From NCBI RefSeq assembly GCF_044704955.1, contig NC_091981.1, positions 80,600,001 to 80,664,000 of the forward strand: a DNA stretch of 64,000 nucleotides. Direction: 5' to 3'. The position numbers and the translations under genes were made by a program. This stretch comes from Pristiophorus japonicus (lineage: Eukaryota). Below the pieces are notes generated by a model. It ran no database searches and was not told the DNA's origin. It saw only the letters and a list, made by a program, of their open reading frames with translations. Shown here one piece after another: positions 5,143-64,000 of the stretch; position 1 is the stretch's first letter, and every line of letters starts with the position of its first letter.

Positions 5143-5575
5143 ATCATCATCATCATCACAGGCAGTCCCTCGTGTCGAGGATGACTTGCTTCCACTACAA
5201 AAAGGGATGAGTTCACAGGTATTGCAATGAAGGACTGAATATTCCAGGTACCGAATTCATGTTGAAGGGTGGAAGATGCCTGTGTGTGGATTTTTTTTAA
5301 CGTGTGGTGGCCGTTGCACACCAGCCACCGCACGGACTTGACAGAGCTCGGTCTTGGTCCAGTGGCAAGGAGTAACCAAGTCGACTGGAGACCAGCTCTG
5401 CTGCACGGCCTTAGTGCACACACATATTGCAGTGTGGGCTGGCCCGTGCTGCCCCTGGGCTCTCGCCTCTTCTGGGCCTCGAACTCACCGATCTTGTCGC
5501 TCCACGATCACTCACCGCTCCTGTGCCCCAACCTCGCTGCTCCTGCTGTACCTGCCCACACTCCAATCAGCGACC
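5143..5575 (-). mobile_element. Non-autonomous retroelement (SINE-like) with RTE-type 3' tail
   Basis: The reverse complement ends GGAAGCAAGTCATCCTCG..CGAGGGACTGCC(TGA)n, matching the RTE end at 43200-43246. The body aligns with 59992-60363. Confidence 0.85.
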
Positions 5576-6036
5576 TGTGGTGTCCTTCACCATGGGCTTT
5601 GACACCTTGATTCTCACAGAAAAAAAACTTAATATATTCTACTTTTAAGTATGTTCATCTATCAACATTATGAACAGTGCTGTTCCTTAGGTACTCCGCT
5701 GGTCATAAGGGAGGAGTTCACAGGTATTGCATTTTGATTAGAATTGATACAACAGTTCGCCACCCTTTTTTATTACCATTTAACTAATCTAGATTTCAAT
5801 TTACATGTGCCTTTAATGACTTGTTAAAAAGAAAATCAGGCACAGTTCATTTTGAACTTCATTCACTCACCCACGACATGATGGACCAGAGCAGTGTGGG
5901 TGGCCCAGATTATCCAACCTTCTAAGGAGCTACCTTGCCATGGTTAAAAGATCAAGAACTTAGCACATGGGTATTCAAAGTGAAAAACCAGATGTTACAA
6001 TTCCAAGGAGCAGCATATTAAAATTATTTCGATGTA

Positions 6037-6120
6037 CATGTGCAGCGCCTAAAATCTGGAACCCTCGGTTCGGAACGTCAGAAAGGGGGGTGTACCTGCC
6101 GAGGAGCGGTTCGGGGTGTT
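6037..6120. mobile_element. Left end of a TA-flanked Tc1/mariner-pogo-type MITE leading into a minisatellite
   Basis: TA + CATGTGCAGCGCCTAAAATCTGGAACCCTCGG resembles the TIR CAGGTACAGCGTCCGAAATCCGGAATCCTCAG at 33567. The right end is not seen. Confidence 0.6.
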
Positions 6121-7385
6121 GGGCGGGCGGGGCCCCGCCGAGGTGGTCGCCGGGTGGTAGGGCCCCGCCGAGGTGGTCGCCGGGCGGTAGGGCCCCGCCG
6201 AGGTGGTCGCCGGGCGGTAGGGCCCCGCCGAGGTGGTCGCCGGGCGGTAGGGCCCCGCCGAGGTGGTTGCCGGGCGGGGCCCCGCCGAGGTGGTTGCCGG
6301 GCGGTAGGGCCCCGCCGAGGTGGTCGCCGGGCGGTAGGGCCCCGCCGAGGTGGTCGCCGGGCGGTAGGGCCCCGCCGAGGTGGTCGCCGGGCGGTAGGGC
6401 CCCGCCGAGGTGGTTGCCGGGCGGGCGGGGCCCCGCCGAGGTGGTTGCCGGACGGGCGGGGCCCCGCCGAGGTGGTTGCCGGGTGGGCGGGGCCCCGCCG
6501 AGGTGGTTGCCGGGCGGTAGGGCCCCGCCGAGGTGGTCGCCGGGCGGGCGGGGCCCCGCCGAGGTGGTTGCCGGGCGGGCGGGGCCCCGCCGAGGTGGTC
6601 GGCGGGCGGTAGGGCCCCACCGAGGTGGTCGCCGGGCGGGCGGGGCCCCGCCGAGGTGGTTGCCGGGCGGTAGGGCCCCACCGAGGTGGTTGCCGGGCGG
6701 TAGGGCCCCGCCGAGGTGGTCGCCGGGCGGGCGGGGCCCCACCGAGGTGGTTGCCGGGCGGTAGGGCCCCACCGAGGTGGTCGGCGGGCGGTAGGGCCCC
6801 ACCGAGGTGGTCGCCGGGCGGGCGGGGCCCCGCCGAGGTGGTTGCCGGGCGGTAGGGCCCCACCGAGGTGGTCGGCGGGCGGTAGGGCCCCACCGAGGTG
6901 GTCGCCGGGCGGGCGGGGCCCCGCCGAGGTGGTTGCCGGGCGGTAGGGCCCCGCCAAGGTGGTTGCCGGGCGGTAGGGCCCCGCCGAGGTGGTCGCCGGG
7001 CGGGCGGGGCCCCACCGAGGTGGTCGCCGGGCGGTAGGGCCCCACCGAGGTGGTCGCCGGGCGGTAGGGCCCCACCGAGGTGGTCGCCGGGCGGTAGGGC
7101 CCCACCGAGGTGGTCGCCGGGCGGTAGGGCCCCACCTAGGTGGTCGCCGGGCGGTAGGGCCCCACCGAGGTGGTCGCCGGGCGGGCGGGGCCCCACCTAG
7201 GTGGTCGCCGGGCGGTAGGGCCCCACCTAGGTGGTCGCCGGGCGGGCGGGGCCCCGCCGAGGTGGTCGCCGGGCGGAAGGGCCCCGCCGAGGTGGTTGCC
7301 GGGCGGTAGGGCCCCACCGAGGTGGTCGCCGGGTGGGCGGGGCCCTGCCGAGGTGGTCGCCGGGTGGGCGGGGCCCTGCCGAGGA
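6121..7385. repeat. GC-rich minisatellite, 30-31 bp unit (GGGCCCCGCCGAGGTGGTCGCCGGGCGGTA), about 41 copies
   Basis: Directly visible tandem array. It accounts for all overlapping ORFs at 5967-7531. Confidence 0.98.
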
Positions 7386-7523
7386 AGCCAATTGGAGCAT
7401 TTGCACAAAAAATTCTCAACAATCTCTATGAAGAAAGAATGAGAGACAGAAATCATGAAAATGTTCAAAACGTTCCCTATTTTGCCTGACTGCAGCACTT
7501 TATGAGATGAGGTGCTGCCTAAT

Positions 7524-9896: not shown

Positions 9897-10504
9897 CATA
9901 AAACTACAGCAAATTATTTCCTTTCTGTACACAAGCATCCTCCCACTTATTTCTCTTGCCCAGGCTTCTTTCACCATTGCGAGAACCAGTGTCCAGGCTA
10001 CAGACCTCTCCATATCTGCTGACCTGAGCAGCTGTCTTGCAGCTGGCAAGGTGGATGTCCAGAAGAGAGTGCTCCATTATTATAAATCCCCCACTTAAAT
10101 TATCTGTCATTTTATGAAACTCAGCCAAGCTCAGCAGATAATAAATCATGGATTCAATCCTAGAGATTGTTTATCCATCCCTTCTGCATGGCATTTAAGC
10201 TCTCAGGAGCCCCTCACTTTCAAATGCTGGGCCTGGAGAAAAAATTATCAGTAAGGACACCAGTATGGTGAAAAAAAAAGTGTCTCTTTATGCAAATTAC
10301 CGTAATCAAACAATGCATGGTGGTGTTCAATTTCATTAACTGCTATCTATATACTTGACTCGTTCGAAGGATGCTTGGCTGGCTCATCATGATCTAACCA
10401 TGTACAACATAATTCACATTCACCAAAATGTTAAATCAAACTCTTGTCTGGACAGAGTTTGGTGGATACTACCATGCAGAGAGAAAACAAGCAAAAACAT
10501 GAAA

Positions 10505-11165
10505 GAGACTTGCATTTATACAGCACCTTTCGTACCACCGTACGTCCAAAGCGCTTTACAGTCAATAAAGTACTTTTGAAGTGTAGTCACTGTTGTAATG
10601 TAGGAAATGTGGCAGCTAATTTGCACACAAGCAAGCTCGTACAAACAGCAATGTGATAATGACCAGATAATCTGTTTTTGTTAAGTTGATTGAGCGATAA
10701 ATATTGACCAGGACACCAGGAATGCCAGAAACATGGGCTTGGGGGTGGGGGGAAAGGTCAAGCATTTGAGGCGTCGGGACAGGAACTAATTTTAGGGGGA
10801 GTGGGAGAACGTCTTAACCCGTGAGAATGAGCCCGGTCTGTTCCAAGTGGAGTCGGCAGTCAGAATGGCTGAAATTACACTTTGCAAAGTCACTGATGAT
10901 GTCGTCAGGGCGGTTCTAATTACATATTCCAAAGAAACAGCTGGGTGTGTCTTATCCTCCAAGAGGACCAATCGGGTCTTGCAATCTTCGAAATAGTGCC
11001 ATGGGATCTTTTACGGCCATCTGAGAGAGCAGATGGGCCTTGGTTTAATGTTTCATCTGTACTCCCTCAGTACTGCACTGGAGTGTCAGCCTAGACTTTG
11101 ATGCTCAAGTCTCTGGAGTCACAACCTTCTGACTCAGAGGCAAGACTGCTATCTACTGAGCCACA
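10505..11165 (-). mobile_element. tRNA-derived SINE with L2-type tail (SacSINE1/DeuSINE-like), interrupted at 10720-10973
   Basis: Minus-strand head GTGGCTCAGTAGATAGC resembles 52893-52985. Tail TGTAAAGCGCTTTGG...TATAAATGCAAG resembles the L2 tails at 43520-43575 and 52595-52650. Confidence 0.8.
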
Positions 11166-12374
11166 TCTGACACAGGAAAGAGGTATAAATGGTTCAGTCG
11201 GGTGAGTTAATTGGTAGGTACTGTGCTGGAATGGGCTAGAAACATTTTTTGCACTTGCCATTTTGTTGACAATTTTTATTTAAGCAAATTGGAAGCACGG
11301 CTGCTGAAGAAAGAAAGGGTCTTCAAGATGTATTTTTAAATAACCAACAGTTGCAAAGTGCAGCATGTGTAAAAAGAAAACTCCACCAATCATTCTTGTG
11401 TTGTACCAATCTGGGCAATGGTAAAATTGACTCAGAGCAAGGCTACTAAATTTTCGTGAAATGTCAACATACATCAACATCTTCCCCAAAGAATACATTC
11501 ATGTTATTTGCTGCTTGTTGGTCAACTTCAAGGGACGCCTTTATTTGTAACACCTAAAGCTCTGATTGCTGATTGGTCCTCTTGCAGGATGAGACACACC
11601 CAACAGTTTCGCTGGAATATGTAATTAGAACCGCCCTGACGACATAATCAGTGACTTTGCAAAGTGTAATTTGAGCCATTCTGACTGCCGACTCCAAACA
11701 GAAGAGCTCACTTGGAACAGACCGGGCTCATTCTCATGGGTTAAGACGTTTTCCGACCCTCCCAAAACGAGTTCCTGTCCCGAAACCTCAAGTGCTTGAC
11801 CTTTCCCCCAACCCCAAGCCCATGTTTCTGACATTCTCCCCCAGCCCAAGTGCCTGACCTTCGTCCCCGTAACCGGCCCAAGTTCCTGACCTCCTCCCCC
11901 TGCCTAAGTTCCTCCCCCATGGATTCATGACTTTCTTCACAAACAAGTTCCTGACCACAACACCCCCCACCCACCCACCCACAACCCCAAGCCATAGATG
12001 GGGCATTGTGTGGGGGTCACGGATTGTCAACAGGTTTATTTGGTATGAAGTGAATAGTGACAGTATCGTGACTTCTGGATTTCGTCTACTCTAATGATGT
12101 CACTTGCCACACATGCACCGAGCTTGCAGAGAAATCAACCAGGTAGGGGGAGGAGAGGGAGAACATGGTGCGGTTGTAAAGGGGGTGGGGTTGGAAGGTG
12201 GTGATCTGTCTTACCATCTGGATCGTGTTCTCATTCTCAACTCTTTCTTCCACCACCCCACCCCCTTTAGATCTAGATCACATTCTTCCCTCATCTCCGC
12301 TGTGCTCGCCATGCTCTTTAGCCACCACCACCACCGAGTTCCCTCTCTCCTTTTCCCCTCCGATCCCCTCGCTC

Positions 12375-14430
12375 CCTCCCACCCAGTCTCTCTCTGCCCC
12401 TCATCCCCTCCCACCCAGTGTCTCTCTCCCTCTCCCCTCTCTGTCTCTCACCCCCTCCCACCCAGTCTCTCTCCCTCTCCCCCAGTCTCTCTCTGTCCCT
12501 CGCCCCCTCCCACCCAGTCTCTCTCCCTCTCCCCCAGTCTCTCTCTGTCCCTCGCCCCCTCCCACCCAGTGTCTCTCTCCCTCTCCCCCAGTCTCTCTCT
12601 GCCCCTCGCCCCCTCCCACCCAGTCTCTCTCCCTCTCTGCCCCTCGTCCCCTCCCACCCAGTGTCTCTCTCCCTCTCCCCCAGTCTCTGTCCCTCCCCCC
12701 TCCCACCCAGTCTCTCTCCCTCTCCCCCAGTCTCTCTCTGCCCCTCGTCCCCTCCCACCCAGTGTCTCTCTCCCTCTCCCCCAGTCTCTCTCTGCCCCTC
12801 GTCCCCTCCCACCCAGTGTCTCTCTCCCTCTCCCCCAGTCTCTGTCCCTCCCACCCAGTCTCTCTCCCTCTCTGCCCCTCGTCCCCTCCCACCCAGTGTC
12901 TCTCTCCCTCTCCCCCAGTCTCTGTCCCTCCCCCCTCCCACCCAGTGTCTCTCTCCCTCTTCCCCAGTCTCTCTCTGCCCCTCGTCCCCTCCCACCCAGT
13001 GTCTCTCTCCCTCTCCCCCAGTCTCTGTCCCTCCCACCCAGTCTCTCTCCCTCTCTGCCACTCGTCCCCTCCCACCCAGTGTCTCTCTCCCTCTCCCCCA
13101 GTCTCTGTCCCTCCCCCCTCCCACCCAGTGTCTCTCTCCCTCTCCCCCAGTCTCTGTCCCTCCCCCCTCCCACCCAGTGTCTCTCTCCCTCTCCCCCAGT
13201 CTCTGTCCCTCCCCCCTCCCACCCAGTGTCTCTCTCCCTCTCCCCCAGTCTCTCTCTGCCCCTCGTCCCCTCCCACCCAGTGTCTCTCTCCCTCTCCCCC
13301 AGTCTCTCTCTGCCCCTCGTCCCCTCCCACCCAGTGTCTCTCTCCCTCTCCCCCAGTCTCTGTCCCTCCCACCCAGTCTCTCTCCCTCTCTGCCCCTCGT
13401 CCCCTCCCACCCAGTGTCTCTCTCCCTCTCCCCCAGTCTCTGTCCCTCCCACCCAGTCTCTCTCCCCCCTCCCACCCAGTCTCTCTCCCTCTCCCCCAGT
13501 CTCTGTCCCTCCCACCCAGTCTCTCTCCCTCTCTGCCCCTCGTCCCCTCCCACCCAGTGTCTCTCTCCCTCTCCCCCAGTCTCTGTCCCTCCCCCCTCCC
13601 ACCCAGTGTCTCTCTCCCTCTCCCCCAGTCTCTCTCTGCCCCTCGTCCCCTCCCACCCAGTGTCTCTCTCCCTCTCCCCCAGTCTCTCTCTGCCCCTCGT
13701 CCCCTCCCACCCAGTGTCTCTCTCCCTCTCCCCCAGTCTCTGTCCCTCCCACCCAGTCTCTCTCTCCCTCTCTGCCCCTCGTCCCCTCCCACCCAGTGTC
13801 TCTCTCCCTCTCCCCCAGTCTCTGTCCCTCCCCCCTCCCACCCAGTGTCTCTCTCCCTCTCCCCCAGTCTCTCTCTGCCCCTCGTCCCCTCCCACCCAGT
13901 GTCTCTCTCCCTCTCCCCCAGTCTCTCTCTGCCCCTCGTCCCCTCCCACCCAGTGTCTCTCTCCCTCTCCCCCAGTCTCTCTCTGCCCCTCGTCCCCTCC
14001 CACCCAGTGTCTCTCTCCCTCTCCCCCAGTCTCTGTCCCTCCCACCCAGTCTCTCTCTCCCTCTCTGCCCCTCGTCCCCTCCCACCCAGTGTCTCTCTCC
14101 CTCTCCCCCAGTCTCTCTCTGCCCCTCGTCCCCTCCCACCCAGTGTCTCTCTCCCTCTCCCCCAGTCTCTCTCTGCCCCTCGTCCCCTCCCACCCAGTGT
14201 CTCTCTCCCTCTCCCCCAGTCTCTGTCCCTCCCACCCAGTCTCTCTCCCTCTCTGCCCCTCGTCCCCTCCCACCCAGTGTCTCTCCCCCTCTCCCCCAGT
14301 CTCTGTTCCTCCCCCCTCCCACCCAGTGTCTCTCTCCCTCTTCCCCAGTCTCTCTCTGCCCCTCGTCCCCTCCCACCCAGTGTCTCTCTCCCTCTCCCCC
14401 AGTCTCTCTGTCCCTCTCCCACCCAGTCTC
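12375..14430. repeat. Pyrimidine-rich compound minisatellite (CCCTCCCACCCAGTGTCTCTCTCCCTCTCCCCCAGTCTCT modules), about 2 kb
   Basis: Directly visible array with extreme C/T strand bias. It accounts for the six 690-841 aa ORFs. Confidence 0.98.
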
Positions 14431-14864
14431 TCTCTCCCTCTGTCCCTCGCCTCCTCCCACACACTCTCTCTCCCTCTCCCCTCCAATCCCTTCTCTCTCC
14501 CCTCCAATCCCCTCTCCCACCCCTCGATCCCCTCTCTCTCTCTAGTCTCTTTCTCTCCCCCACTCTCTGCCTCTATCTCCCCTTCCAGTATCTCCCTCTC
14601 TCCCAGTCTCCTGCTCGCTCTCTTTCTGCCCGACTCTCTCCCTCCCACTTTCTCCCTCCCACTTCTGATTTCCTCTCTCTTTCAGAAGGCCGCGAAAATT
14701 CTAGGCAAAAGTCCTCGAGATAACCCAAAAGCCCCAGAAGCAGCTCCAGCTCCAGGTTCGAGTGGCAATGAGCTCCACACGGTTCGTGGTTCGGGCGCAC
14801 TTCCGGCTACCTCAAATATCGTACCGTACATGCGCAAAAGGGGGTGCGGGAGTCCCTGAATATT

Positions 14865-16151: not shown

Positions 16152-16464
16152 CCTCAGATTAGGAGACCAAAACCATACACCATATTCAAGGTGTGGCTTT
16201 ACTAAGGCCCTGTACAACTGTAGTAAGACCTCCCTGCTCCTATACTCTAATCCTCTCGCTATGAAGGTCAACATGCCATTTGCTTTCTTTGCTGCATGCT
16301 GCACCTGTATGCCAACCTTCAATGACTGATGTACCGTGACACCCAGGTCTTGTTGCACCTCCCCCTTTACCAATCTGTCACCATTCAGATAATAATCAAA
16401 CCTCCTGTTTTTAACCACCAAAGTGGATAACATCACATTTATCCACAATATACCGCATCTGCCA
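16152..16464 (-). mobile_element. Inverted 5' segment of the adjacent CR1 copy
   Basis: ORF 16116-16448 (-) contains QDLGV and LVKPHLEY. It ends at CCTAATCTGAGG, where the + segment at 16499 resumes. Confidence 0.9.
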
Positions 16465-17012
16465 CAGAGACTAAAGTCCTGAACTTAAAGAAAGGTTACT
16501 GAGGAAGGACATTCTTGCTATTGAGGGAGTGCAGCAAAGGTTCACCAGACTGATTCCCGGGATGACAGGACTGACATGAAGAAAGACTGGATCGACTAAG
16601 CTTGTATTCAATGGAATTTAGAAGAATGAGAGGGGATCTCATAGAAATATAAAATTCTGACAGGATTGGACAGGTTAAATGCAGAAAGAATGTTCCCAAT
16701 GTTGGGGAAGTCCAGAACTAGGGGTCACAGTCTAAAGATAAGGGGTAAGCCATTTAGGACCGAGATGAGGAGAAACTTCTTCACTCAGACATTTGTGGGC
16801 ATGTGGAATTCTCTATCACAGGAAGTTATTGGGGCCAGTTCGTTAAATATATTCAAAAGGCAGTTAGATGTGGCCCTCACGGCTAAAGGGATCAAGGGGT
16901 ATGGAAAGAAAGCAGGAATGGGGTACTGAAATGCATGATCAGCCATGATCATATTGAATGGTGGTGCAGGCTCGAAGGGCCGAATGGCCTACTCCTGCAC
17001 CTATTTTCTATA
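16465..17012 (+). mobile_element. CR1 LINE 3' end
   Basis: RRMRGDL and RTRGHSLKIRG motifs. 3' UTR GGGCCGAATGGCCTACTCCTGCACCTATTTTCTAT. Confidence 0.95.
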
Positions 17013-17960
17013 TTTCTTCCCGCCAGGCGATAAACTTTTATTTAATTCATTTTATGCACCCCAAACCGGGCACGGGGCAATTTTGCCTCCTTTGTTTTCT
17101 ATTATAATAAAATTTAAAACTGCAAATCTGAGACAATTGTTTATATGCACAGTTGCTTGTTGCTGCTATGAATCCACCCCACAGTACGAAAGGGATGGAT
17201 TCACAGCCTCACCTGCCAAGACTATCACAAGAAAACTTCTACCCAAGGCATTTCCGAAACAACAAAGAGGCATTGGAGCGCAATTATGTCCTAGGTGAAG
17301 TCAATAAATTTTCCGAATTATTTTTCTTGAACACAAATACTCAATGTTTCACCTGCAGCCAAGATTTGTCAAAATACATGTTACACAACCTTTATATTAT
17401 CCAAGTTTCAACCATTAAGTCTTGAGCTGTAATAATGAGCCTCTGAACTATGGAGACCTTTTTTAAAAAAACTGGGTTGCAGGAATGTACATTCACATTT
17501 TATTAAGCCATTATACATATAGATCTAAAATTCATATATATTTTATGAAGCTATTAGAAATAGTGTACGGTCATATATTTTACGTACAATTCAGGATGCA
17601 TTCACTATTTTATGAGGTCATTGTATATTTAGGTGTGCAATCATACACATTTCATGAAAGTCTACATTCCCATGCATAGTTTATGAATTGTCTGCATTCT
17701 GACTGCATTGTGCCTCCAGGAGAAAAGCGCCACAGCTGGGAGCCATGCAGGCCAGGGCTAAGACAGCTTTTTTGGTCCTGGGTTTTAAGGGTTAGTTAGG
17801 CTTGGTTACCTGCGTAATCATGGCCATGTTGGTTGGCGTCAGTGAGTATCAGGTTTTTGGGTCTTTCCAAATCTTTCTATCCTACACTGTTTACGCTCTC
17901 GCATTTTAGAAAGCAGAAAACGACTAAAAAAATAATTGAGAGGGAAGATAAGATTATGAA

Positions 17961-20906
17961 GGACAGAGGAAACAAGCAGGAAAAAAGGGTAAAAAGACAA
18001 ATTTAAAAGCACTTTGTCTAAATGCACGTAGCATTCATAAGAAAATAGATGAGCTGACAGCACAAATAGATACAAATGGGTATGATCTGATAGCCATTAC
18101 AGAGACGTGGTTGCTAGGTGACCAGGATTGGGAACTAAATATTCAGGGGTATTTAACAATTCAGAAGAACAGACAGAAAGGAAAAGGAGGTGGGGTAGCA
18201 CTGTTAATAAAGGATGGGATCAGTGCATTAGTGAGAAATGATATTGGTTCAGAGGATCAAGATGTGGAATCATTTTGAGTGGAGATAAGGAATAATAAAG
18301 TCGCTGGTGGGTGGAGTCCATAGGGCCCCTAACAGTAGCTACATTGTTGGACAGAGTATAAATCAACAAGTAATGGAGGCTTGTAACAAAGGAACGGCAA
18401 TAATCATGGGTGATTTTTAATCTTCATGTTGATCAGACAAAGCAAACTGGCCAGGGTAGCCTTGGAAGAATTCATGGAGCATATCTGGGATCGTTTCCTT
18501 GAACAGTACATTGCAGAACCAACCAGGGAGCAGGATATCTTAGATCTGATACTGTGTAATGAGACAGGATTACTAAATGATCTTGTAGTAAAGAATCCTC
18601 GAGGAATGAGTGGCCATAACATGGTTGAATTTCAAATTCAGTTGGAGGGTGAGAAAGTTGGTTCTCAAACCAGGGTCCTAAGCATAAATAAAGAAGACTA
18701 CAACAATATGAGGGCAGAGTTGGCTAAAGTGGACGGGGAAAATAGACGAAAGTATGGCGCGGTTGATGAGCAGTGACAGACATTTAAGGAAATATTTCAC
18801 AACTTGCATCAAAAATATATCCCAATGAGAAGGAAAGACTGTAAAAGAAGGGATAACCATCCATGGCCATCCGAAATAAGGGCGGGTATCAAATGAAAAC
18901 AAAGGCATCCAATGTGGTCAAGACTAGTGGGAGACCAAGGATTGGGAAATTTGAAAAAGACAGCAGAAAACGACTAAAAAAATAATTGAGGGGGAAGATA
19001 AGATTATGAAAGTAAACTAGCACAAAATATAAAAGCAGATAGTAAGAGTCTCTACAGGTACATAAAAAGAAAGAGTGTGCCTAAAGTAAATGTTAGTTCC
19101 CTGAAGGATGAGACTGGGGAATTAATAATGGAGAACAGGGAAATGGCGGAGAGGTTGAACAAATATTTTGTATCGGTCTTCACAGGAGAAGACACTAAAA
19201 ACATCCCAAGAGTGGATAATCAAGGGGCTATAGGTAGGGAAGAACTTAATACAATCATTATCATTAATAAAGTAGTACTAAGTGAAATAATGGGACTAAA
19301 GGTGGACAAGTCCCCTGGAACTGATGGCTTACATCCTAGGGTCTTAAGAGAAGTGCCTGCAGAGATAGTGGATGCGTTGATTGTAATCTACCAAAATTCC
19401 CTGGATTCTGGGGCAGTCCCAGTAGATTGGAAAACCGCAAATGTAACACCCATATTTAAAAATAGAGGCAGACAAAAAGCAGGAAACTATAGACCAGTTA
19501 GCCTAACATCTGTCATTGGGAAAATGCTGGAGTTCATTATTAAGGAAGCAGCAGCGGGACATTTGGAAAAGCATGATTCAATCAAACAGTCAGCATGGTT
19601 TTATGAAAGGGAAATCATGTTTAACAAATTTGCTGGAGCTCTTTGAGGATGTATTGAGCAGGGTGGATAAGGGGGAACCAGTGGATGCGGTGTATTTGGA
19701 TTTTGAGAAGGCATTCAATAAGGTGCCACATAAGAGGTTACTGCACAAGATAAAAGCTCACTGGGTTGGGGGTGATATATTAACATGGATAGAGGATTGG
19801 TTAACGAACAGAAAACAGAGATAGATGGGATAAATGGGTCATTTTCCGGTTGGCAAACAGTGACTAGTGGGGTGCCACAGGCATTGGTGCTGGGTCCTCA
19901 ACTATTTACAATCTATATTAATGACTTGGATGAAGGGACTGAGTGTAATGTAGCCAAGTTTGCTGATGATACAAAGATGGATGGCAAAGCAAATTGTGAG
20001 GAGGACACAAAAAATCTGCAAAGGGATCTAGAGAGGCTAAGTGAGTGGGCAAAAATTTGGCAGATGGAGTATAATGTGGAAAAATGTGAGGTCACCACTT
20101 TGGCAGAAATAATAGAAAAGCAAATTATAATTTAAATGGAGAAAAATTGCAAAGTGCTGCAGTACAGAGAGACCTGGGGGTCCTTGTGCATGAAACACAA
20201 AAAGTTAGTATGCAGGTACAGCAAGTAATCAGGAAGGCAAATGGAATGTTGGAATTTACTGCAAGTGGGATAGAGTATAAAAGCAGAGAAGTCCTGCTAC
20301 AACTGTACAGGGTATTGGTGAGGCCACACCTGGAGTACTGCGTACAGTTTTGGTCTCCGTATTTAAGGAAGGACATACTTGCATTGGAAGCTGTTCAGAG
20401 AACGTTCACTAGGTTGATTCCGGAGATGAGGGTTGATTCCGGAGATGAGGGGGTTGACTTAGGAGGATAGGTTGAGTAGGTTGTGCCTATACACATTGGA
20501 GTTCAGAAGAATGAGAGGTGATCTTATTGAAACATATAAGATAATGAGGGGGCTCAACAAGGTGGATGCAGAGAGGATATTTCCACTCATAGGGGAAACT
20601 AAAACTAGGGGACATAGTTTCAGAATAAGGGGTCGTCCATTTAAAACTGAGATGAGGAGAAATTTCTTCTCTGAGGGTTGTAAATCTATGGAATTTTCTG
20701 CCCAGAGAGTTGTGGAGGTTGGGTCATTGAATATATTTAAGGCGGAGATAGAGAGATTTTTGAGCGATAAGGGAGTAAAGGGTTATGGAGAGCAGGCAGG
20801 GAAGTGGAGCTGAGTCCATGATCAGATCAGCCATGATCTTATTGAACGGCAGAGCAGGCTCAAGGGGCCAAATGTCCTACTGTTGCTCCTATTTCCTATG
20901 TTCTTA
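17961..20906 (+). mobile_element. CR1 LINE, near-complete decayed ORF2 (APE endonuclease + RT) and 3' UTR
   Basis: LNARSI, AITETWL, IMGDF, EPTREQDILDLILCNE, the RT motifs and KFADDTK are spread across frames. Ends in a CCTATTTCCTATGTT tail. Confidence 0.95.
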
Positions 20907-22519
20907 GACCATTCTCATGGGCGTGAGTGTTCATCTTTGCCTGGATCTCTAAGAAAGGATTTGCTTACATACAATTGCAAATCCTGTTTAGTATAATGGC
21001 TATGATTTTCTGAACTATTTTAAGCCATTAAAAAATTTCCATTTAGTTTTCAAAATTGCAGACTCACAATAGACCATGCTTAAAATATAAACACTGGAAG
21101 CAAATTTATGAATATACAATGAACAGTGAATAATACTGATAGGGTGACTGCAGGGTTTTCGTCTAAACTCCTTGGAATGGCAGAATGAAGAGATTATGGG
21201 CTCAATTTCACCCAAGCCCGTTTTCTGCCATATTTTCTAGGCCAGAAATGCGGCAGAAATATTTTGCCAAAGTTTCCCCGATGTATAATTCAAAGTTGGC
21301 GGCGTGCAGCGTGTCCAGTCACCTCGGAGGGTTGGGGCCTGCTGTCTGCAGCGAAAAAACGATGTTGCACCTTCTATGCATGCGCAACAAAAAAATATGA
21401 TGTTTTTGACGTTATATCAATGGACGTGCATGTGCAGCACTGCTCCGGGTTGGCAATCGGTCATTTTTAAAGAGCCAGTTGTGTGAGAAGGAGTGCTGTG
21501 TGAGAGCATTGGAAAAATCGGATCTGCAGCAATGCAAGATGTAACGCAGTGCAAGGACCAAGAATTTCTTACAGGATGAAGTGGAGGCACTAGTTAACGT
21601 GATGCAGACCAGATAGCAGGAGCTGGATACCAGCAGAGGTCACATAAGAGTTCCACCCAAAGAAATGAAGAAATGCTGGAATCAAGTTGCAGATTACTGC
21701 ACAGTGGTGACCACCACGAGATCTGGAGGCCAGTGTAAAAAGAAGTGGCAGGACCTTGGTCAAGTAGTTAGTGTAAGTAATATTTTCATTTATTCAATGG
21801 AATTGCAATTGTAAATGTGACCAGCTGTATATGTCCCACTCAGCAGAAAGACACCCTCTCTAAAAAGTTGCATTTTCATCTTTGCAGAGGAAGGTGGCAC
21901 ACAACAAAAGGGAAAGAACTCGAACAGGAGGAGGCCCAGCAAATCTATACCCACCGATACCCTTGCTGCTTTGATGGGTTCTGCCTGAAAAAAAGCAACC
22001 ACCACTAAATAAGCTGGGCCCACAGTCGAGGGGGAGGGAAAGTCCTGCAAATTCCAGTCTGGCTTTGCAAAATGTTAAGTACTGTGCGAGCTAGCCATGC
22101 TTTGGTTCCTGGGGATGACTCCGTCAGCTACGCTTCAGTTGATGCAATGAGCCATCATTCATTGTGGTCCTTTAAATCAGCCTGCTGTCTGCGCTGTGTG
22201 AGCCTACTCATGCCACCCACCCTGCCCCCTCCTCTGATGCTAACCCATTTGTCTGTGTTCTGTTATATTTTGCAGGACTTGAGGCCAACCCTGACGATGC
22301 AGAAGATGATTCAGATGAGGACGAGCCTGAAGGAGAACAGCTTCCAATCCCACCCGCCAGACCAAGAGCATGGGGGCGAAGGGGTGGGGATGGAGATGGA
22401 TGAAGCCCCCACTGTTTTACTGACTTTGGTGGAGGTGCAGGTGCCGCCTATTTAGGTGTTAGCCCCTTCCGTGACTAGTGGTTTGAGTGTTGGTGGGACA
22501 TTCCATGGTTTACTAACGT

Positions 22520-22748: not shown

Positions 22749-24505
22749 AGCAGAAACATAGAAATCTACAGCGCAGAAGGAGGCCATTTCGGTCCATGCC
22801 GACTGACAAAGAGCTACAAGACCCTCGGTCAGCAGCCCTGAAGTTAATATATAAACCTATAAACAATGGCAGAAAGGTAAAGAGCACCCAGCCCAATCAG
22901 TCTGCCCCACACAACTGCAACACCCCTTGTACCGAAACATTCTACACTCCACCCCAACCGGAACCATGTGATCTCCTGGGAGAGGCAAAAACCAGATAAA
23001 AACTCAGGCCAATTGAGGGGTGGGGGGGTGGAAATCTGGGAAAATTCCTCTCCGATCCAGCCAGGCAATTGAAACTAGTCCAGATCACCTTGGCTGTATT
23101 CGATTCCCTGCAGTATGCATCATCATATCTGCGCCAGCCAACAAGAGGTTATCCAGTATAATCCCACTTACCAGCTCTAGGTCCGTAACCCTGCAGGTTA
23201 CGGCACTTTAATTGCCCATCCAAGCACCTTTTAAATGTGGCAAAACCCATCAAAGCAGCAAGGGTGTCAGTGGGTGCAGATTTGCTGGGCCTCCTCCTGT
23301 TCGAGTTCTTTCCCTTTTGTTGTATGCCACCTTTCTCTGCAAACAGACCGAGAGTTCCAGACCCCCACAAACCTCTGCGTGAAGCAGCCTCATCTCAAAT
23401 CCCCTCTGAACCTTCCACCAACCACCTTAAAGCTATGCTCCTCGTAATTGACCCCTCCACCAAGGGAAATAAGCCCTTGCTATCCACTATATCCAGGCAC
23501 CTCAAAATTTTGTACACCTCAATGAGGTCTCCTCTCAATCTCTTCTGTTCCAATGAGAACAAACCCAGCCTAAGCAATCTGTCCTCAAAACTAAGATTCT
23601 CCATTCAGGCAGCATCCTAGTAAATCTCCTCTGCATCCTCTCGTGCAATCACGTCCTTCCTATAATACGGCGACCAGAACAGCATGCAGTACTCTAGCTG
23701 TGGCCTAACCAGAGTATTATACAATTTAAGCATAACCTCCCTGCTCTTGTATTCTATATCTTGGCCAATAAAGGCAAGCATTCCGTATGCCTCCTTATCC
23801 ACCTGGCCTGCTACTTTCAGCAATCTGTGGACAAGCACTCCAAGATCCCTTTGTTCATCTACACTTTTAACTGGCCTAACACTTAATGTATATACCCTTT
23901 CCTCATTAGCCCTCCCAAAGTGCATTACCTCACACTTCTCAGAATTAAATTCCATTTGCCACTACTCTGCCTACCTGACCAGTAGATTGATATCCTCCTG
24001 CAGCCCATGACTTTCCTCTTCATTATCAACCACACAGCCAATTTTAGTGTCGTCTGCAAACTTCTTAATCATACTCCTTATATTCAAATCTAGATCATTG
24101 ATATATACTACAAAAAGCAAGGGACCCAGAACAGAGCCCTGCAGAACCCCACTGGAAACATCTTTCCAGTCACAAAAACATCCATCAACCATTACCCTTT
24201 GCTTCCTACCTATAAATCAATTTTGGATCCAACTAGCCACTTTGCCCTGGATCACATGTGGTTTAACCTTCGTGACCAGTCTACCATGTGGGATCTTATC
24301 AAAAGCTTTGCTAAAGTTCATATACATCACATCGTACGCACTATCCTCATCGACCCTCCTGGTTACCTCCTCAAAAAATTCAATCAGGTTAGTCAAACAC
24401 GATCTTCCCTTAACCAATCTGTGCTGACTGTCCCTAATTAATACTTGCCTTTCCAAATATAGATTTAGCCTGTCTTTCAGGATTTTTTCCAATAATTTTC
24501 CCACC
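22749..24505 (-). mobile_element. CR1 LINE (5'-truncated RT to 3' UTR) inserted in the Myb pseudogene
   Basis: Minus-strand ORFs carry GVLQGSVLGP, KFADDTK and LVRPQLEY. The flanks rejoin as GGCAATGAGTGGGGAG, with ATGA on both sides. Confidence 0.93.
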
Positions 24506-28378: not shown

Positions 28379-28388
28379 CCTTCATAAG

Positions 28389-31300: not shown

Positions 31301-31610
31301 CATCTGCCAAATTTTTGCCCACTCACTTAGCCTGTCTATGTCCTTTTGCAGATTTTTTGTGTCTTCCTCACACATTGCTTTTCCTCCCATCTTTGTATCG
31401 TCAGCAAACGTGGCTACGTTACACTCAGTCCCGTCTTCCAAGTCGTTAATATAGATTGTAAAAAGTTGGGGTCCCAGCACTGATCCCTGCGGCACCCCAC
31501 TAGTTACTGGTTGCCAACCAGAGAATAAAGCATTTATCCAGACTCTCTGTTCTCGATTAGTTCGCCAATCCTCTATCCATGCTAATATATTACCCCCAAC
31601 CCCGTGAACT
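28389..31610 (-). mobile_element. CR1 LINE 3' fragment split in two (28389-28490 and 30604-31610) by a nested CR1
   Basis: CAGCTCCACTTC (to 28490) and CCCGCCCGCTCCCCATAAC (from about 30606) are contiguous in the paralog at 27788-27815. RT motifs lie in 31172-31495 (-). Confidence 0.9.
28491..30603 (+). mobile_element. CR1 LINE, 5'-truncated, RT and 3' UTR (nested insertion)
   Basis: ORFs 28780-29223, 29220-29885 and 29898-30425 carry the full RT motif set. Tail CCTATTTTCTATGT. Confidence 0.95.
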
Positions 31611-32444: not shown

Positions 32445-32603
32445 AGGAAAAATAAAAAAGCTAATTATTATTTAAATGGAGAGAGATTACAAAATGCTGC
32501 AGTGCAGAGGGACCTGGGGGTCCTTGTGGATGTAACACAAAAATTTAGTATGCAGGTACAGCAAGTAATCAGGAAGGCAAAAGGAATGTTGCCCTTTACT
32601 GCA
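32445..32603 (+). mobile_element. Short CR1 segment, inverted relative to the neighbouring copy
   Basis: Reverse-complement match to about 32824-32982. Confidence 0.85.
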
Positions 32604-40189: not shown

Positions 40190-41199
40190 TGCAAAGTTGA
40201 ATTGGCACTTTTATTTCTTCAAACACACAGTCCTTAATTTGCAGGCACCGGTTCTGCAAGTTTAGCAGTGAAAAGCTGAACTCACTGATTTCAGCAGGTG
40301 ATTTATTCAGCAGTGCTGCTAAAAGCACTCCCTCACACACAGAAATATCAAGAAAATTAAAATACAAGCCTCTGCAGGGGTCCAAGAAACAAATCTTCAC
40401 TTTTTCTGCAGCACTTTTAAAAATGGCCGAGTGCCAATGTTTACTTCAGACTGCGCGTGCGCGAACGCTCCAACGCGCACGCGCTGGGTTGCCGGCAGCA
40501 AGAAGCCTCATTTAAATTGTACCCGCCCCCTCCTACTTACAAAATTGGCGTGAGTGGTAGGCTCCGCCCCCTGTGCGCCGCGCCAAGCAGACATCGAGCT
40601 CAAAGGAGCTCGAGAATACCACGTTTTTTTTCCGGCGCCGTTTTCGGCGCGAAAAACAGGCGCCCAGCTCTGAGATGCGCATTTTTCGCCGCGTGTGAAA
40701 ACTTGGGGCCCTTGTGTTTAAAATTAAATGGTAGCACAAACATCTCTGCTAATTGCACCAATCTGCCACATTCATTTTTAGTACATTTAGCTAATGAACA
40801 AAAAACTGGTACAAGGTGAATTAAACGTTTAATTTGTTCAATGCTTTCAATGTAACCAACATTATGTATATTTGAGCAGCATAAACTATTTAAAAGAAAT
40901 TAGAACTAAAATCTTCAGCACTGGTAAAATGTGACGAGACATATTCAGCTAACAAAAATATCAGCTATCTCCTAAGCAAAAATCTTTGCTCAAAGTCCTG
41001 TGAGCCAATCCTGAAAGATGAATCAATCCAGCATTTTTTCCTATAAAAGGGCAGTAATAGCAAACACTAAATGAAACATTTTGTCACCCCTGGCCCCAGG
41101 ATAACTTCACTTGCTCAGATGCAAGGATGGTTCATTAAATTCAGTATTCTATTTTACAGGTACAGTTATATACATTACTGTTCATTCATTTCGGTATCT

Positions 41200-43576: not shown

Positions 43577-45295
43577 TCTATTTTTAAGCTTCGTCAAAAT
43601 ATAGTTATAACAAGATTTCAGTGTTAAGGCACCTCACAGAGCTAGAAGTTCAGCTTGCACTGATTCCAAATTCCTATCATCGTATCACTAGCACAGTACA
43701 TCCAACAAAATATTTTGTGCCTCTTTTAAACAATGAAAGGATCAATGCATAAAATACTGTAGATACTGTTGGAAGAAGAAATCTACCCCTATCTTTGAAT
43801 CCTAATTTTGGGGGATACCAAAAGTAGGCAAACTGCTTTCATGGAGTCATCCAAAGCAATTTCCTGGCAGGTCAAGATGGCTCAAGTCATTAGACACTGC
43901 TTGAAAATATCTCATCAACCCATCAGCCTCCTCTTAAAGCACCCCTCCCACCCCGCTCCCTGGCCACCCACTTCAACCCATGACAAGAAATAATGAAAAA
44001 TAACACAAAGGGGAAGAAATAGTCGTACACTTCAATATATTATTCAACGGTTTGTTCATTAGGAATTCTCTACCGCAGTTGAAATTCTTATCTAACCTGT
44101 AACAGTTTGTGTGTCCACATCAAGGGGTTATTGCTCATTTTACCACATAATGCATTGACAAAATAGTATTTTAGCCTAAAACTCCATAGTATAAAACTCC
44201 ACAACCCTGCTTAAATCTTTCCAAAGAACTGTTCCATTAAAAGAATATTTTCTGGAAAGTTTTATAGCATACTTCCACAGTCCGAGTTAGCAATAAGCTC
44301 AGATGTACTGCATGAAGGAGAAGCAGGCTAATGATGTTGAAGCACAATCTTACATTACAGACTTAATAGCTCCAAAGCACAATAACGAGGGTTTTTTTTT
44401 AAATCATAAAAAAAATTATCCTCTTAAGTTCTTCCCACCTCTCGATAATCTGAAGCTGCACACCTCCAGTGGCCAAGTTTAAATAGAAGAATATAGCGAT
44501 GAAGAAAATCTGCAATTCTATACAGTAATTAGACTTACTTTTATCTAAGCCATGATTGACTAGAGGCATTTTTACCTTGAGTGCCACTAATTTCTCCCAT
44601 TGTCAATGGCATTCTCTGCCATAAAAGAGACATAACCAGATAACCCAGAACTAGGGATTGGAAAATGTTTCAATTCCCACGCTGAACTACAGTGACATTT
44701 AAAAAAAAACACACATCCTGAGGTCTCTCAAAGTCAAAGGCAATTTAGTGCCAATTGTTGCTCAATTGGGGGGTAATTTTGTTCTAAAGGCAGCTGCCTG
44801 CTAGAAACTGGACTAAAACTGGCCACATTCCTTTCATCCAGGGCAATTACAACCAACAAGATGGAAACATTTATTCTCATCAATTGGAGTTCGATTTTAA
44901 CCCACACTCCAGCAGTTAATGACCATTACCTAAAGCACTGCATCAACAAATTCCTCATCATTCTGTTTGCTATTTATACCATATGAGGTAATCAAATTTG
45001 AAATTATAAGGTAGAGGGAAACTTACATAAAAAGTAAATTGCTCGAGTTCTCTAGTGGCATTGCCGGGATAGCTTATTTTTTAAAAAGTGCCATCTATCA
45101 ATAATTTTGATGTCACTAAGTCATATAGTTTAGAACATCACGGATATTTTGTAATACAAATTCAGTATTCAGATATAATATTGGAACTTAGAGAGTGCAG
45201 TAAGTCTAATTACTGTAAAATTTAGTGTACAAATTGCACTTCTGTAAGGTTACTAATCTTCAGAAAAATACAGACCATGAACTAAAAATTAATTA

Positions 45296-61369: not shown

Positions 61370-62325
61370 ATGGCAGGAGAGCTCGGACACGTGTTATGCT
61401 CCTCCTGTACTATGTGGGAAGTCAGGGACGCTTCCGGTGTCCCTGACGACTACATGTTTAGGAAGTGCATCGGCCTGCAGCTCCTGACGGACCGCGTTGC
61501 GGCGCTGGAGCTGCAGGTGGATGTACTCTGGAGTATCCACGATGCTGAGAATGACATGAATAGCACGTTTAGTGTGTTGGTCTTACCGCAGGTAACCGGT
61601 ACACAGCCAGATAGGGAATGGGTGACCAACAGGAAGAGCAGTGCAAGGAAGGTAGTGCAGGGGTCCCCTGCAGTCATCCCCCTGCAAAACAGATACACTG
61701 CTTTGGGTACTGTTGGGGGGGGGGGGGATGACTCATCAGGTTAGGGCAGCAGCAGCCAAATTCATGGCACCGTGGGTGGCTCTGCTGCACAGGAGGGCAG
61801 GAAAAAGAGTGGGAGAGCTACAGTGATAGGGGATTCAATTGTAAGGGGAATAGATAGGCGTTTCTGCGGCCGCAAATGAGACTCCATGATGGTATGTTAC
61901 CTCCCTGCTGCAAGGGTCAAGGATGTCTCGGACCGGGTGCAGGGCATTCTGAAAAGGGAGGGTGAACAGCCAGTTGTCGTGGTGCATATAGGTACCAACT
62001 ATATAGGTTAAAAAACGGGATAAGGTCCTACAAGACGAATTTAGGGAGCTAGGAGCTAAATTAAAAAGTAGGACCTCAAAAGTAGTAATCTCAGGATTGC
62101 TACCAGTGCCACGTGCTAGTCAGAGTAGCAATCGCAGGATAGCTCACATGAATATGTGGCTTGAGGAGTGGTCCAAAAGGGAGGGAATTCAAATTCCTGG
62201 GACATTGGAACCGGTTCTGGGGGAGGTAGGACCAGTACAAATCGGACAGTCTGCACCTGGGCAGGACCGGAACCAATATCCTAGGGGGAGTGTTTGCTAG
62301 TGCTGTTGGGGAGGAGTTAAACTAA
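61370..62325 (+). pseudogene. CR1 ORF1 (zinc finger / leucine zipper + SGNH esterase-like domain), disrupted
   Basis: CSSC...RKC, LTDRVAALELQV, VIGDSIVRG (about 61823), VVVHIGTN and D.LHL. In-frame stops. Confidence 0.9.
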
Positions 62326-62499
62326 CATGGCAGGGGGATGGGAATCTATGCAGGGAGACAGAGGGAAGTAGAATGGGGGCAGAAGCAAAAGATAGAAAGA
62401 AGAAAAGTAAAAGTGGAGGGCAGAGAAACCCAAGACAAAAAGCAAAAAGGGCCACATTACAGCAAAATTCTAAAGGGGCAAAGTGTATTAGAAAGACAA

Positions 62500-64000
62500 G
62501 CCTGAAGGCTCTGCGCCTCAACGCGAGAAGTATTCGGAATAAGGTGGACGAATTAACTGCGCAGATAGCAGTTAACGGGTATGATGTAATTGGCATCACG
62601 GAGACATGGCTCCAGGGTGACCAAGGCTGGGAACTCAACATCCAGAGGTATTCAACAGTTAGGAAGAATAGACAGAAAGGAAAAGGAGGCAGGGTGGCAT
62701 TGTTGGTTAAAGAGGAAGTTAATGCAATAGTAAGAAAGGACTTAGCTTGGATGATGTGGAATCGGTACAGGTGGAGCTATGGAATACCAAGGGGCAGAAA
62801 ACGCAAGTGGGAGTTGTGTACAGACCACCAAACAATAGTTGTAAGGTTGGGGACAGCATCAAACAAGAAATTAGGGATGCTTGCAATAAAGGTACAGCAG
62901 TTATCATGGGTGACTTTAATCTACATATTGATTGGGCTAACCAAACTGGTAGCAGTGTGGTGGATGAGGATTTCCTGGAGTGTATTAGAGATGGTTTTCT
63001 AAACCAATATGTCGAGGAACCAACCAGGGAGCTGGCCATCCTAGACTGGGTGATGTGTAATGAGAAAGGACTAATTAGCAATCTTGTTATGGTCACTCTT
63101 CCCCTAGGGGTCTCGCACAACATGGTAGAATTATTTATTAGGATGGAGAGTGACACAGTTAATTCAGAAACTAGGGTCCTGAACTTAAGGAAAGGTAACT
63201 TTGATGGTTTGAGGCGTAAATTGGCTCGAATAGACTGGCAAATGATACTTAAAGGGTTGACGGCAGATAGGTAATGGCAAACATTTAAAGATCACATGGA
63301 TGAACTTCAGTAATTGTACATCCCTGTCTGAAGTAAAAATAAAACGGGGAAGGTGGCTCAACCGTGGCTAACAAGGGAAATTAAGGAGAGTATTAGATCC
63401 AAGGAAGAGGCATATAAATTGGCCAGAAAAAGCAGCAAACCTGAGGACTGGGAGAAATTTAGAATTCAGCAGGAGGACGACAAAGGGTTTAATTAAGAGG
63501 GGGAAATTGAGTACGAGAAGAAGCTTGCCAGGAACATAAAAACTGACTGCAAAAGCTTCTATAGATATGTGGAGAGAAAAAGATTAGTGAAGACAAACAT
63601 AGGTCCCTTGCAGTCAGATACAGGTGAATTTATAATGCGGAAACAAATAAATGGCAGACCAATTGAACAAATACTTTGGTTCTGTCTTCACGAAGGAAGA
63701 CACAAATAACCTTCGGGAAGTACTAGGGGAGGGTCCAGTGAGAAGGAGGAACTGAAGGATATCCATATTAGGCGGGAAATTGTGTTAGGGAAATTGATGG
63801 GGTTGAAGGCCAATAAAACCCCGGGGCCTGATAGTCTGCATCCCAGAGTACGTAAGGAAGTGGCCCTAGAAATAGTGGATGCATTGGTGATCATTTTCCA
63901 ACAGTCTATCAACTCTGGATCTGTTCCTATGGACTGGAGGATTGCTAATGTAACACCACTTTTTAAAAAAGGGAGGGAGAAACTGGGTAATTATAGACCG
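62500..64000 (+). pseudogene. CR1 ORF2 N-terminus (APE endonuclease, linker), disrupted
   Basis: LNARSIRNK, IGITETWL, VVYRPP, IMGDFN, EPTRELAILDW and PGPDSLHPRV. Confidence 0.93.

What the first reader, a model, noticed from the sequence alone, without database searches (positions are those of the whole stretch)
5202..63122. Window-wide pattern of locally templated insertions and micro-rearrangements
At least five short segments (25-255 bp) are copies of sequence 0.2-1.3 kb away, in direct or inverted orientation: 5707-5731, 10720-10973, 17912-17960, 23239-23347 and 32445-32603. Most sit at a break or deletion in another element. A 36-bp patch (16465), a 30-bp micro-inversion (63089) and an isolated 19-bp inverted pair (44521/45199) add to this. 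The copies are seen directly. A common origin in templated break repair (Pol theta end joining, replication template switching or microhomology-mediated break-induced replication) is inference. If this density holds genome-wide, it would be an under-described mutational process that shuffles sequence between unrelated elements.
Basis: partly seen in the sequence, partly recalled or inferred. Interest (0 to 1): 0.7.

Follow-up and report, generated by a model that had tools for sequence, protein, structure and literature searches.

The report
Nearby-DNA repair patches in shark-like genome
Four or five short stretches in this transposon-rich, probably shark, DNA are copies of sequence 0.5-1.3 kb away, most likely pasted in while separate chromosome breaks were repaired; such scars were catalogued in other vertebrates in 2009, so this is a new example of a known mutation type, and two of the listed cases have other causes.

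Summary
Partly confirmed. Four of the five named patches (5707, 10720, 17912, 23239) share derived changes with their neighbour. Three of them replace 14-27 bp of a host repeat, and 5 of their 6 junctions have 2-4 bp microhomology. The 19-bp pair (44521) probably belongs with them. The 63089 inversion fits a textbook short template switch. Two items fail: 32445 shares 0 of 7 donor changes and is closer to distant copies, and 16465 is a LINE-derived filler in a twin-priming-like 5'-inverted insertion. In 1.10 Mb of sampled genome, 45 nearest-match pairs lie within 5 kb against 4.9 expected, so the pattern extends beyond the window. The window is 3-6 times denser than the rest of the sample, and about half of the longer pairs are LTR pairs, tandem repeats or possible terminal inverted repeats. 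The process is not under-described: it matches the repair-mediated duplications of Pace et al. 2009 (mean distance 1.2 kb, deletion, filler, microhomology). Tract length and distance fit ectopic strand annealing or fork template switching better than classical Pol theta insertions. My searches found no survey in cartilaginous fish. The scan noted the same kind before in other genomes.

The parts
5707..5731 (+). P1 acceptor: 25-bp direct copy in sequence with no repeat match; ancestral site unknown
   Evidence: 24/25 to donor, both donor-derived sites shared; flanks have no homologues in the sample
5202..5226 (+). P1 donor, inside an interspersed repeat (about 5147-5580)
   Evidence: 44 other copies cross both its ends; 1,740 candidates in the genome search
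10480..11200 (-). P2 host: very high-copy tRNA-type SINE (resembles LF-SINE; name and strand recalled, not tested), interrupted with loss of about 14 bp
   Evidence: host copies stop at 10723 and resume at 10985, modal gap 14 bp
10720..10984 (-). P2 acceptor: about 260-bp inverted copy. 4-bp microhomology at left; the last 11 bp match family sequence that the donor has since lost (inferred), giving 2 bp at right
11571..11836 (+). P2 donor, part of a different interspersed repeat family
   Evidence: 10,263 candidates in the genome search; private changes shared with the patch
16152..17017 (+). 5'-inverted CR1-type LINE insertion with twin-priming-like geometry: 16152-16464 antisense, 16499-17017 sense to the 3' end, break points overlapping by about 5 bp
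   Evidence: junction not found in 39 other scored loci
16465..16500 (+). P6: 36-bp filler from about 1.4 kb upstream of the sense part in the same LINE family; likely copied from the element's RNA or cDNA at insertion, not from neighbouring DNA
   Evidence: L043 3829-3864 vs 5259; other copies 92%, window copy 86%
17912..17960 (+). P3 acceptor: 41 new bases replace 19 bp of the host LINE near its truncated 5' end, with 4-bp microhomology at both ends
   Evidence: 98% to donor vs at most 92%; junction unique among 40 scored
18962..19010 (+). P3 donor, 1.0 kb downstream in the same CR1-type LINE copy (about 17906-20906)
   Evidence: 3 of its 4 derived changes are in the patch, so copying came long after the LINE inserted
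21881..21985 (+). P4 donor: piece of a decayed Myb/SANT-domain gene, likely of a Harbinger transposon
   Evidence: Myb_DNA-bind_4 E 2.4e-4, below the curated cut-off, at 21617-21811; 13-bp deletion shared with the patch
23239..23343 (-). P4 acceptor: 103-105-bp inverted copy replacing 27 bp of an unrelated LINE-like host (22752 to beyond 23800); microhomology 2 bp left, 0 right
   Evidence: junction unique among 40 scored
32445..32604 (+). P5: LINE fragment tail-to-tail with a 3'-truncated copy of the same subfamily (32602-33480, minus strand); not shown to be a local copy
   Evidence: 0 of 7 donor-derived changes shared; distant copies 94.4% vs 90.6%
44521..44539 (+). P8 probable acceptor of a 19-bp inverted copy in single-copy DNA
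   Evidence: a contig of organism C has 106 other letters in place of 44477-44552
45199..45217 (-). P8 probable donor
   Evidence: lies inside a stretch (45080-45236) that aligns in organism C
63087..63122 (.). P7: in-place inversion in a LINE endonuclease region. A 30-bp core plus one flank change that perfects a 4-bp inverted repeat; one 36-bp template switch explains both
   Evidence: 6 of 6 homologues show the other orientation and the ancestral base

Best explanation
Four of the patches (5707, 10720, 17912, 23239), and probably the 19-bp pair at 44521, are copies of DNA 0.5-1.3 kb away, likely left by independent germ-line break repairs of the known repair-mediated duplication type. Inferred steps: a break loses 14-27 bp; one 3' end anneals through 2-4 bp of microhomology to nearby DNA on either strand (same or sister chromatid); it copies 20-260 bases, lets go, and rejoins the other end. 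Shown: local origin, host deletion (three cases), microhomology, different ages and a genome-sample excess. Inferred: the break itself and the pathway. I favour ectopic synthesis-dependent strand annealing or an equivalent fork template switch (FoSTeS/MMBIR) for the copying step, perhaps closed by microhomology end joining. The other items are a mixture: 63089 is a short in-fork template switch, 16465 is a by-product of LINE insertion, and 32445 is most likely two same-subfamily LINE pieces brought together, or a fold-back made at insertion time.
For: Donor-private changes are shared by the patch. Host repeats are interrupted with small deletions: 14 bp (P2) and 27 bp (P4), 19 bp (P3). Microhomology of 2 bp or more occurs at 5 of 6 window junctions with a known host (p 5e-4) and at 8 of 9 when three readable junctions from two outside events are added (p 3e-6; read by eye). 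The P3 and P4 junctions occur in no other of 40 scored loci, so they are not family features; no other locus joins the P2 host and patch. There are 45 local pairs vs 4.9 expected in 1.10 Mb, 34 of 45 within 1.5 kb. Pace 2009 reports the same anatomy: mean distance 1.2 kb, mean size 162 bp, microhomology 2-9 nt, deletion 1-15 nt. Changes private to each side argue against assembly error, and one short-read contig spans both P8 arms.
Against: No orthologous empty site was shown for P1-P4; one search was inconclusive because contigs break in the repeats. One of 29 distant copies matches P1 equally well, one shares P4's deletion, and one matches P3 at 96% over a shorter stretch. P2 ends in 11 bp that today's donor lacks. 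P4's right junction has no microhomology, and the 19-bp and 27-bp deletions exceed the 1-15 nt in Pace's table. Genome searches scored only 40 candidates each. Sequence alone cannot separate break repair from fork template switching. Of 25 pairs of 35 bp or more in the sample, 13 were rejected by eye as other things.
Confidence: 0.75

Rival explanations
1. The patches are ordinary independent insertions or nested remnants of abundant repeats that happen to lie near a relative, sometimes homogenised later by local gene conversion.
For: 63-69% of the sampled DNA is interspersed repeat. Most local pairs in the window are not nearest matches (9 of 15). This reading fits P5 and several sample pairs, such as LTR pairs and two LINE 3' ends.
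Against: P3 and P4 are internal pieces of a LINE and of a likely DNA transposon gene, which do not move alone. The P2 and P4 hosts are unrelated to their donors, so no flanking homology exists for conversion. Control distance bins show 9-fold fewer such pairs.
Confidence: 0.08
2. All patches are classical polymerase-theta (TMEJ) templated insertions.
For: Deletion plus insertion, 2-4 bp microhomology and both orientations are TMEJ hallmarks (PMC7165422 passages).
Against: That paper places templates typically within 30 bp, defines them as within 50 bp, and finds primary tracts rarely over 10 bp. Here single tracts are 41-260 bp from 0.5-1.3 kb away. No enrichment near G4 motifs (11 of 23 vs 12.6 expected) or tandem arrays (4 vs 2.6).
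Confidence: 0.1
3. The patches are by-products of retrotransposon integration (reverse-transcriptase template jumps or 5' filler synthesis) made when the LINE or SINE inserted.
For: This fits P6 (twin-priming geometry, LINE-derived filler) and possibly P5 (no shared later changes). P3 lies near a LINE 5' truncation. Extra 5' nucleotides are common for some fish LINEs (PMC4245944 passages).
Against: P3 carries 3 of 4 changes that its donor gained after insertion. P2 and P4 sit in the middle of their hosts and come from other families. P1 and P8 are in sequence with no repeat match.
Confidence: 0.05
4. The pairs are assembly artefacts (chimeric reads or mis-joins).
For: Short-read contigs could not be seen bridging the P2 junctions; no long reads were available.
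Against: Patch and donor differ by 2-13%, with changes private to each side for P2 and P4. One contig from organism A spans both P8 arms.
Confidence: 0.02

Closest known systems
Repair-mediated duplications (RDs), proximal class; Pace, Sen, Batzer and Feschotte 2009, PMC2671141 (read: abstract, whole-text parts 1-3 of 8, sections 12, 13, 21, passages)
   Same: Short copy inserted in an interrupted transposon; donor within 5 kb (mean 1.2 kb); size up to about 600 bp; deletion, filler and microhomology at the junctions; vertebrate germ line.
   Different: Their pipeline needed at least 50 bp and a donor found only once elsewhere, which they say excluded repeat-derived copies. The donors of P1-P4 are all repeat pieces, and P1, P3 and P8 are under 50 bp. 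They surveyed no cartilaginous fish. They confirmed empty sites across species; I could not.
Doublets (short paired duplications), Thomas et al. 2004 (paper not held; known here only through Pace 2009's description)
   Same: Short, near-identical, closely spaced pairs such as P8 and the short pairs.
   Different: Described in mammals; definitions could not be checked.
Short-range template switch mutations, four-point model; Loytynoja and Goldman 2017, PMC5453318 (passages read)
   Same: P7: in-place inversion of a short fragment with perfecting of a small flanking inverted repeat.
   Different: That model requires a reverse-complement fragment from the immediate neighbourhood; it does not cover the direct or kilobase-range patches.
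Pol theta templated insertions (PMC7165422, passages) and MMBIR-type templated insertions (PMC8421209, abstract and outline only)
   Same: Local template, both orientations, microhomology, deletion; MMB-TIs occur as germline variants in humans.
   Different: Classical Pol theta insertions are much shorter and closer (within 30-50 bp) than these.
Twin-primed 5' inversion of LINEs (described in PMC4245944, passages read)
   Same: P6: antisense 5' part, sense 3' part with its end, nearly abutting break points, filler at the joint.
   Different: That paper saw 5' inversions almost only with human L1 in human cells. This is a CR1-type element (clade name inferred), no target-site duplication was seen, and the form is rare here (2 of 125 3'-end fragments).

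Membership tests
Repair-mediated duplication (Pace 2009) | Acceptor interrupts a transposon whose two parts resume within 30 bp of each other | tested here: met
   P2 14 bp, P4 27 bp, P3 19 bp. Not applicable to P1 and P8, which lie in non-repeat DNA.
Repair-mediated duplication (Pace 2009) | Donor 50 bp to 5 kb away and the best reciprocal match | tested here: met
   P2, P3, P4 met; P1 tied with 1 of 29 distant copies; P5 and P6 not met. Only 40 candidates were scored per search.
Repair-mediated duplication (Pace 2009) | Deletion, filler or microhomology at the junctions; no polyA tail | tested here: met
   5 of 6 junctions have 2 bp or more; all three hosts have deletions; no polyA tract in the junction views.
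Repair-mediated duplication (Pace 2009) | Insertion at least 50 bp and donor single-copy (a detection filter, not part of the mechanism) | tested here: not met
   Donors of P1-P4 are repeats; P1, P3 and P8 are under 50 bp. These cases lie outside the catalogue's filter but work like its members.
Repair-mediated duplication (Pace 2009) | Empty orthologous site in an outgroup | tested here: inconclusive
   P2: contigs break in the SINE. P8: organism C has other sequence across the left arm but aligns across the right arm; the state in organism B is not shown. P1, P3 and P4 not tested.
Classical Pol theta TINS | Template within about 50 bp; primary tract rarely over 10 bp | tested here: not met
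   Templates 480-1,253 bp away, tracts 19-260 bp.
Classical Pol theta TINS | Genetic dependence on POLQ | not testable with these tools
   Needs mutants.
Four-point template switch (P7) | A difference cluster explained by one reverse-complement fragment from the immediate neighbourhood | tested here: met
   63087-63122 is the reverse complement of the ancestral stretch shifted by 2 bp, apart from a few later substitutions.
Twin-primed 5' inversion (P6) | Antisense 5' part joined to a sense 3' part, with nearly abutting break points | tested here: met
   Ruler positions 1285-1590 antisense and 1585-2102 sense.
Twin-primed 5' inversion (P6) | Target-site duplication around the whole insertion | tested here: inconclusive
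   None seen by eye in the flanks; CR1 duplications are only about 3-5 bp and this copy is 11-13% diverged.
MITE or DNA transposon terminal inverted repeats (P2, P8) | Both arms and the interior recur together as a family, with a target-site duplication | tested here: not met
   P2's arms are one-sided family pieces inside other elements. P8's region is single-copy. No duplication was found at the outer ends.

The most novel reading that the evidence does not exclude
In this shark-like genome, repair-mediated copies that move sequence between unrelated repeats, a class the 2009 catalogue filtered out, are several-fold denser than RDs in any surveyed vertebrate. The strict count is 3-6 per Mb of transposon DNA, against 0.08-0.65 published. 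About 9 per Mb of all non-satellite DNA are 35 bp or longer, roughly 40,000 genome-wide. Because each patch freezes its donor's private mutations, they would give a datable record of germ-line break repair in a slowly evolving lineage. My sample does not establish this: the count is 2 outside the window (95% interval 0.4-11 per Mb), and there are 0 single-copy-donor cases in 0.69 Mb, which is compatible with the human rate.
Probability: 0.25. Interest if true: 0.5.

Novelty: new member of a known kind. Interest (0 to 1): 0.25.

Why it matters
As it stands, this extends a known vertebrate mutation type to a probable cartilaginous fish. It also shows that testing donor-private mutations recovers the repeat-to-repeat class that the original survey had to discard, and dates each event relative to the donor's insertion. 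If the higher density held genome-wide, it would test Pace's open question of why RD density varies eightfold among vertebrates (repair pathway use, break load from LINE activity, or retention time), using a lineage believed to mutate slowly (recalled, not tested here). No function is implied for any patch in the window; they sit in dead repeats or in non-repeat DNA of unknown role.

Tried and rejected
Terminal inverted repeats of a MITE for 10720/11836 and 44521/45217: rejected.

P5 as a late local copy: rejected. P5 as twin priming: rejected, because the junction is 3'-to-3'.

P6 as a local copy: rejected. Frequent twin priming in these LINEs: not found; 2 of 125 3'-end fragments in the sampled blocks, one of them P6, using two natural copies as rulers and 78% identity or more.

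Association of patches with G4 motifs or tandem arrays: none (11 of 23 vs 12.6; 4 of 23 vs 2.6). The 23 were 12 curated long pairs plus 11 uncurated short pairs.

Rows dropped before counts: 3 of the 10 distant 100-kb blocks (C2, C4, C14) were 87-100% satellite and were left out. Tandem-repeat-masked and low-complexity seeds, pairs with a gap of 50 bp or less, and pairs over 700 bp were excluded. Of 25 pairs of 35 bp or more, 13 were rejected by eye: 5 LTR-pair rows, 4 tandem or internal repeats, 2 possible terminal repeats, 1 pair of LINE 3' ends, and 1 long duplication around a LINE. The control bins were not curated.

The exact-match doublet count was not used, because one long pair yields several rows. 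An all-against-all BLAST timed out and was replaced by a seed-and-extend script.

Orthologue check at P2: inconclusive. One contig per run of organism B carries small insertions at 10736-10741, which might be an orthologous patch junction, but this was not shown. Rfam: 0 matches.

Literature searches for a shark or ray survey listed none; the library lacks most subscription papers, and Thomas 2004 is not held. No supplements were read.
Full report
Setting. The window is G000:C5:80600001-80664000 in a 5.92-Gb genome. It is made mostly of decayed repeats: LINE fragments with reverse transcriptase and endonuclease domains, a DDE_Tnp_4 transposase and Myb/SANT remnants of Harbinger type, SINEs, and GC- and CT-rich tandem arrays. 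A shark is likely from genome size, repeat make-up and the scan's earlier notes on this genome; I did not test this. The names CR1/HER1 and LF-SINE are recalled. About 63-69% of sampled DNA has a non-local repeat match, so a nearby similar sequence alone proves nothing. Each item needed a test of local origin.

Item tests. I aligned each patch and its neighbour with the closest copies from genome searches and asked whether the patch carries the neighbour's own derived changes. P2 (10720-10984) shares six sites seen in 0 of 17 copies and seven seen in 1 of 17. P3 (17912-17960) is 98% like its donor against at most 92% for 29 copies, and it carries 3 of the donor's 4 derived changes, so it was copied long after the LINE inserted. 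P4 (23239-23343) shares a 13-bp deletion, which 1 of 29 copies also has. P1 (5707-5731) shares both derived sites; 0 of 14 unselected copies and 1 of 29 best copies match equally. P5 (32445-32604) shares 0 of 7 donor changes and is closer to distant copies, 94.4% against 90.6%. P6 (16465-16500) has no local source. P8 (44521/45199) lies in single-copy DNA. One same-organism contig spans both P8 arms, and in organism C the left-arm region is replaced by other sequence while the right-arm region aligns.

Junctions. Host copies show what was lost: 14 bp of a SINE at P2, 27 bp of a LINE-like repeat at P4, and 19 bp of the LINE at P3. Microhomologies read by eye are 4 and 2 bp (P2), 4 and 4 bp (P3), and 2 and 0 bp (P4). 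P2's right-hand value assumes that the last 11 bp reflect sequence the donor later lost. Three readable junctions of two events outside the window have 2, 2 and 3 bp. That is 5 of 6, or 8 of 9, at 2 bp or more, against 0.16 by chance. The P3, P4 and P6 junctions occur in none of the other scored loci, so they are not parts of family consensus. Patch-donor divergence runs from 0 to about 13%, which means separate events over a long time.

The other items. P7 is an in-place inversion. All six homologues shown have the other orientation, and a single 36-bp reverse-complement copy shifted by 2 bp also explains a flanking change. This matches the four-point template switches of PMC5453318 (passages). 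P6 is filler at the joint of a 5'-inverted LINE with twin-priming geometry, taken from further upstream in the same family, so it likely arose at integration. Such inversions are rare here (2 of 125). PMC4245944 (passages) saw them almost only for human L1. P5 is a 3'-to-3' junction of same-subfamily pieces. It is either two insertions fused by deletion or a fold-back at insertion time; the data do not separate these.

Genome sample. I took 1.4 Mb from eleven contigs, dropped three satellite blocks, added the window, and scanned 1.10 Mb of unmasked DNA for pairs whose best match in the sample is each other. At 0-5 kb there are 45 (27 direct, 18 inverted). Four equal bins at 10-45 kb hold 16 in all, predicting 4.9 (p 1.5e-16), and 34 of the 45 lie within 1.5 kb. 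An earlier, smaller run agreed: 37 vs 10 in controls. Not all are patches: of 25 pairs of 35 bp or more, 12 look like templated copies and 13 do not. The window is on the dense side: 6 in 58 kb vs 39 in 1,043 kb, and 3 of the 12 curated pairs (p 0.03 and 0.02). No link to G4 motifs or tandem arrays was found.

Comparison with known work. Pace et al. 2009 (PMC2671141) searched interrupted transposons for inserted copies. They found 824 in human with the donor within 5 kb, mean distance 1.2 kb, mean size 162 bp, and deletion, filler or 2-9 nt microhomology at the junctions. Densities were 0.08-0.65 per Mb of transposon DNA in ten vertebrates, none cartilaginous. They attribute the events to ectopic synthesis-dependent strand annealing and note that repeat-derived copies were excluded. 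By their structural rule but allowing repeat donors I count 4 in about 0.69 Mb of repeat DNA, or 2 without the window (3.0 per Mb, interval 0.4-11). With single-copy donors I count 0 (upper bound 5.3). A raised rate is possible but not shown. Classical Pol theta insertions are templated within about 30-50 bp with short tracts (PMC7165422 passages), a poor fit in scale. MMBIR-type insertions are known as human germline variants (PMC8421209 abstract). Two searches listed no survey in sharks or rays. After reaching this reading I saw that the scan had filed similar cases from other genomes under the same paper; those notes are not independent support.

Verdict. The pattern is real and extends beyond the window, but it is a known vertebrate mutation type mixed with two unrelated LINE by-products. 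Interest 0.25; new member of a known kind.

Noticed in passing
window 33633-33912: Perfect 140-bp tandem duplication (100% identity); either very young or an assembly artefact.
   Followed up: no
The inner pair passes the nearest-match filter, but the nesting suggests decayed terminal repeats of one element.
   Followed up: partly
window 16152-17017; G000:C3 block positions 40428-40775: 5'-inverted CR1-type LINE copies with twin-priming geometry, a form reported mainly for mammalian L1; 2 of 125 3'-end fragments in the sample.
   Followed up: partly
window 28385-31610: Nested LINEs: a minus-strand copy (28385-28490 plus 30604-31610) is split by a plus-strand copy (28491-30601); such nesting generates many local inverted matches.
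   Followed up: partly
window 36145-37284 and 21500-22300: Decayed Harbinger-type transposase (DDE_Tnp_4, E 6e-15) and Myb/SANT partner gene remnants.
   Followed up: partly
window 6130-7384 and 12365-14660: A GC-rich 30-bp minisatellite and a 2.3-kb pyrimidine-rich array flank P1 and P2; no general association with patches was found in the sample.
   Followed up: yes
G000:C5:80594366-80594406 (in L040): A 41-bp, 100% identical direct copy from a repeat 605 bp away lies 5.6 kb left of the window, so five patches fall within 30 kb.
   Followed up: partly
G000:C12:40002192 and G000:C8:170038645: Two further clean insertions in interrupted repeats with donors 681 and 146 bp away.
   Followed up: partly
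G000:C14:80.0-80.1 Mb, C2:200.0-200.1 Mb, C4:150.0-150.1 Mb: Three of ten arbitrarily chosen 100-kb blocks are almost wholly satellite DNA (15-bp units on C14, 28/54/82-bp units on C2).
   Followed up: no
window 43900-45240: Single-copy non-repeat DNA that aligns to contigs of other organisms (about 90% in organism B, patches in C and D); possibly a conserved non-coding region.
   Followed up: no
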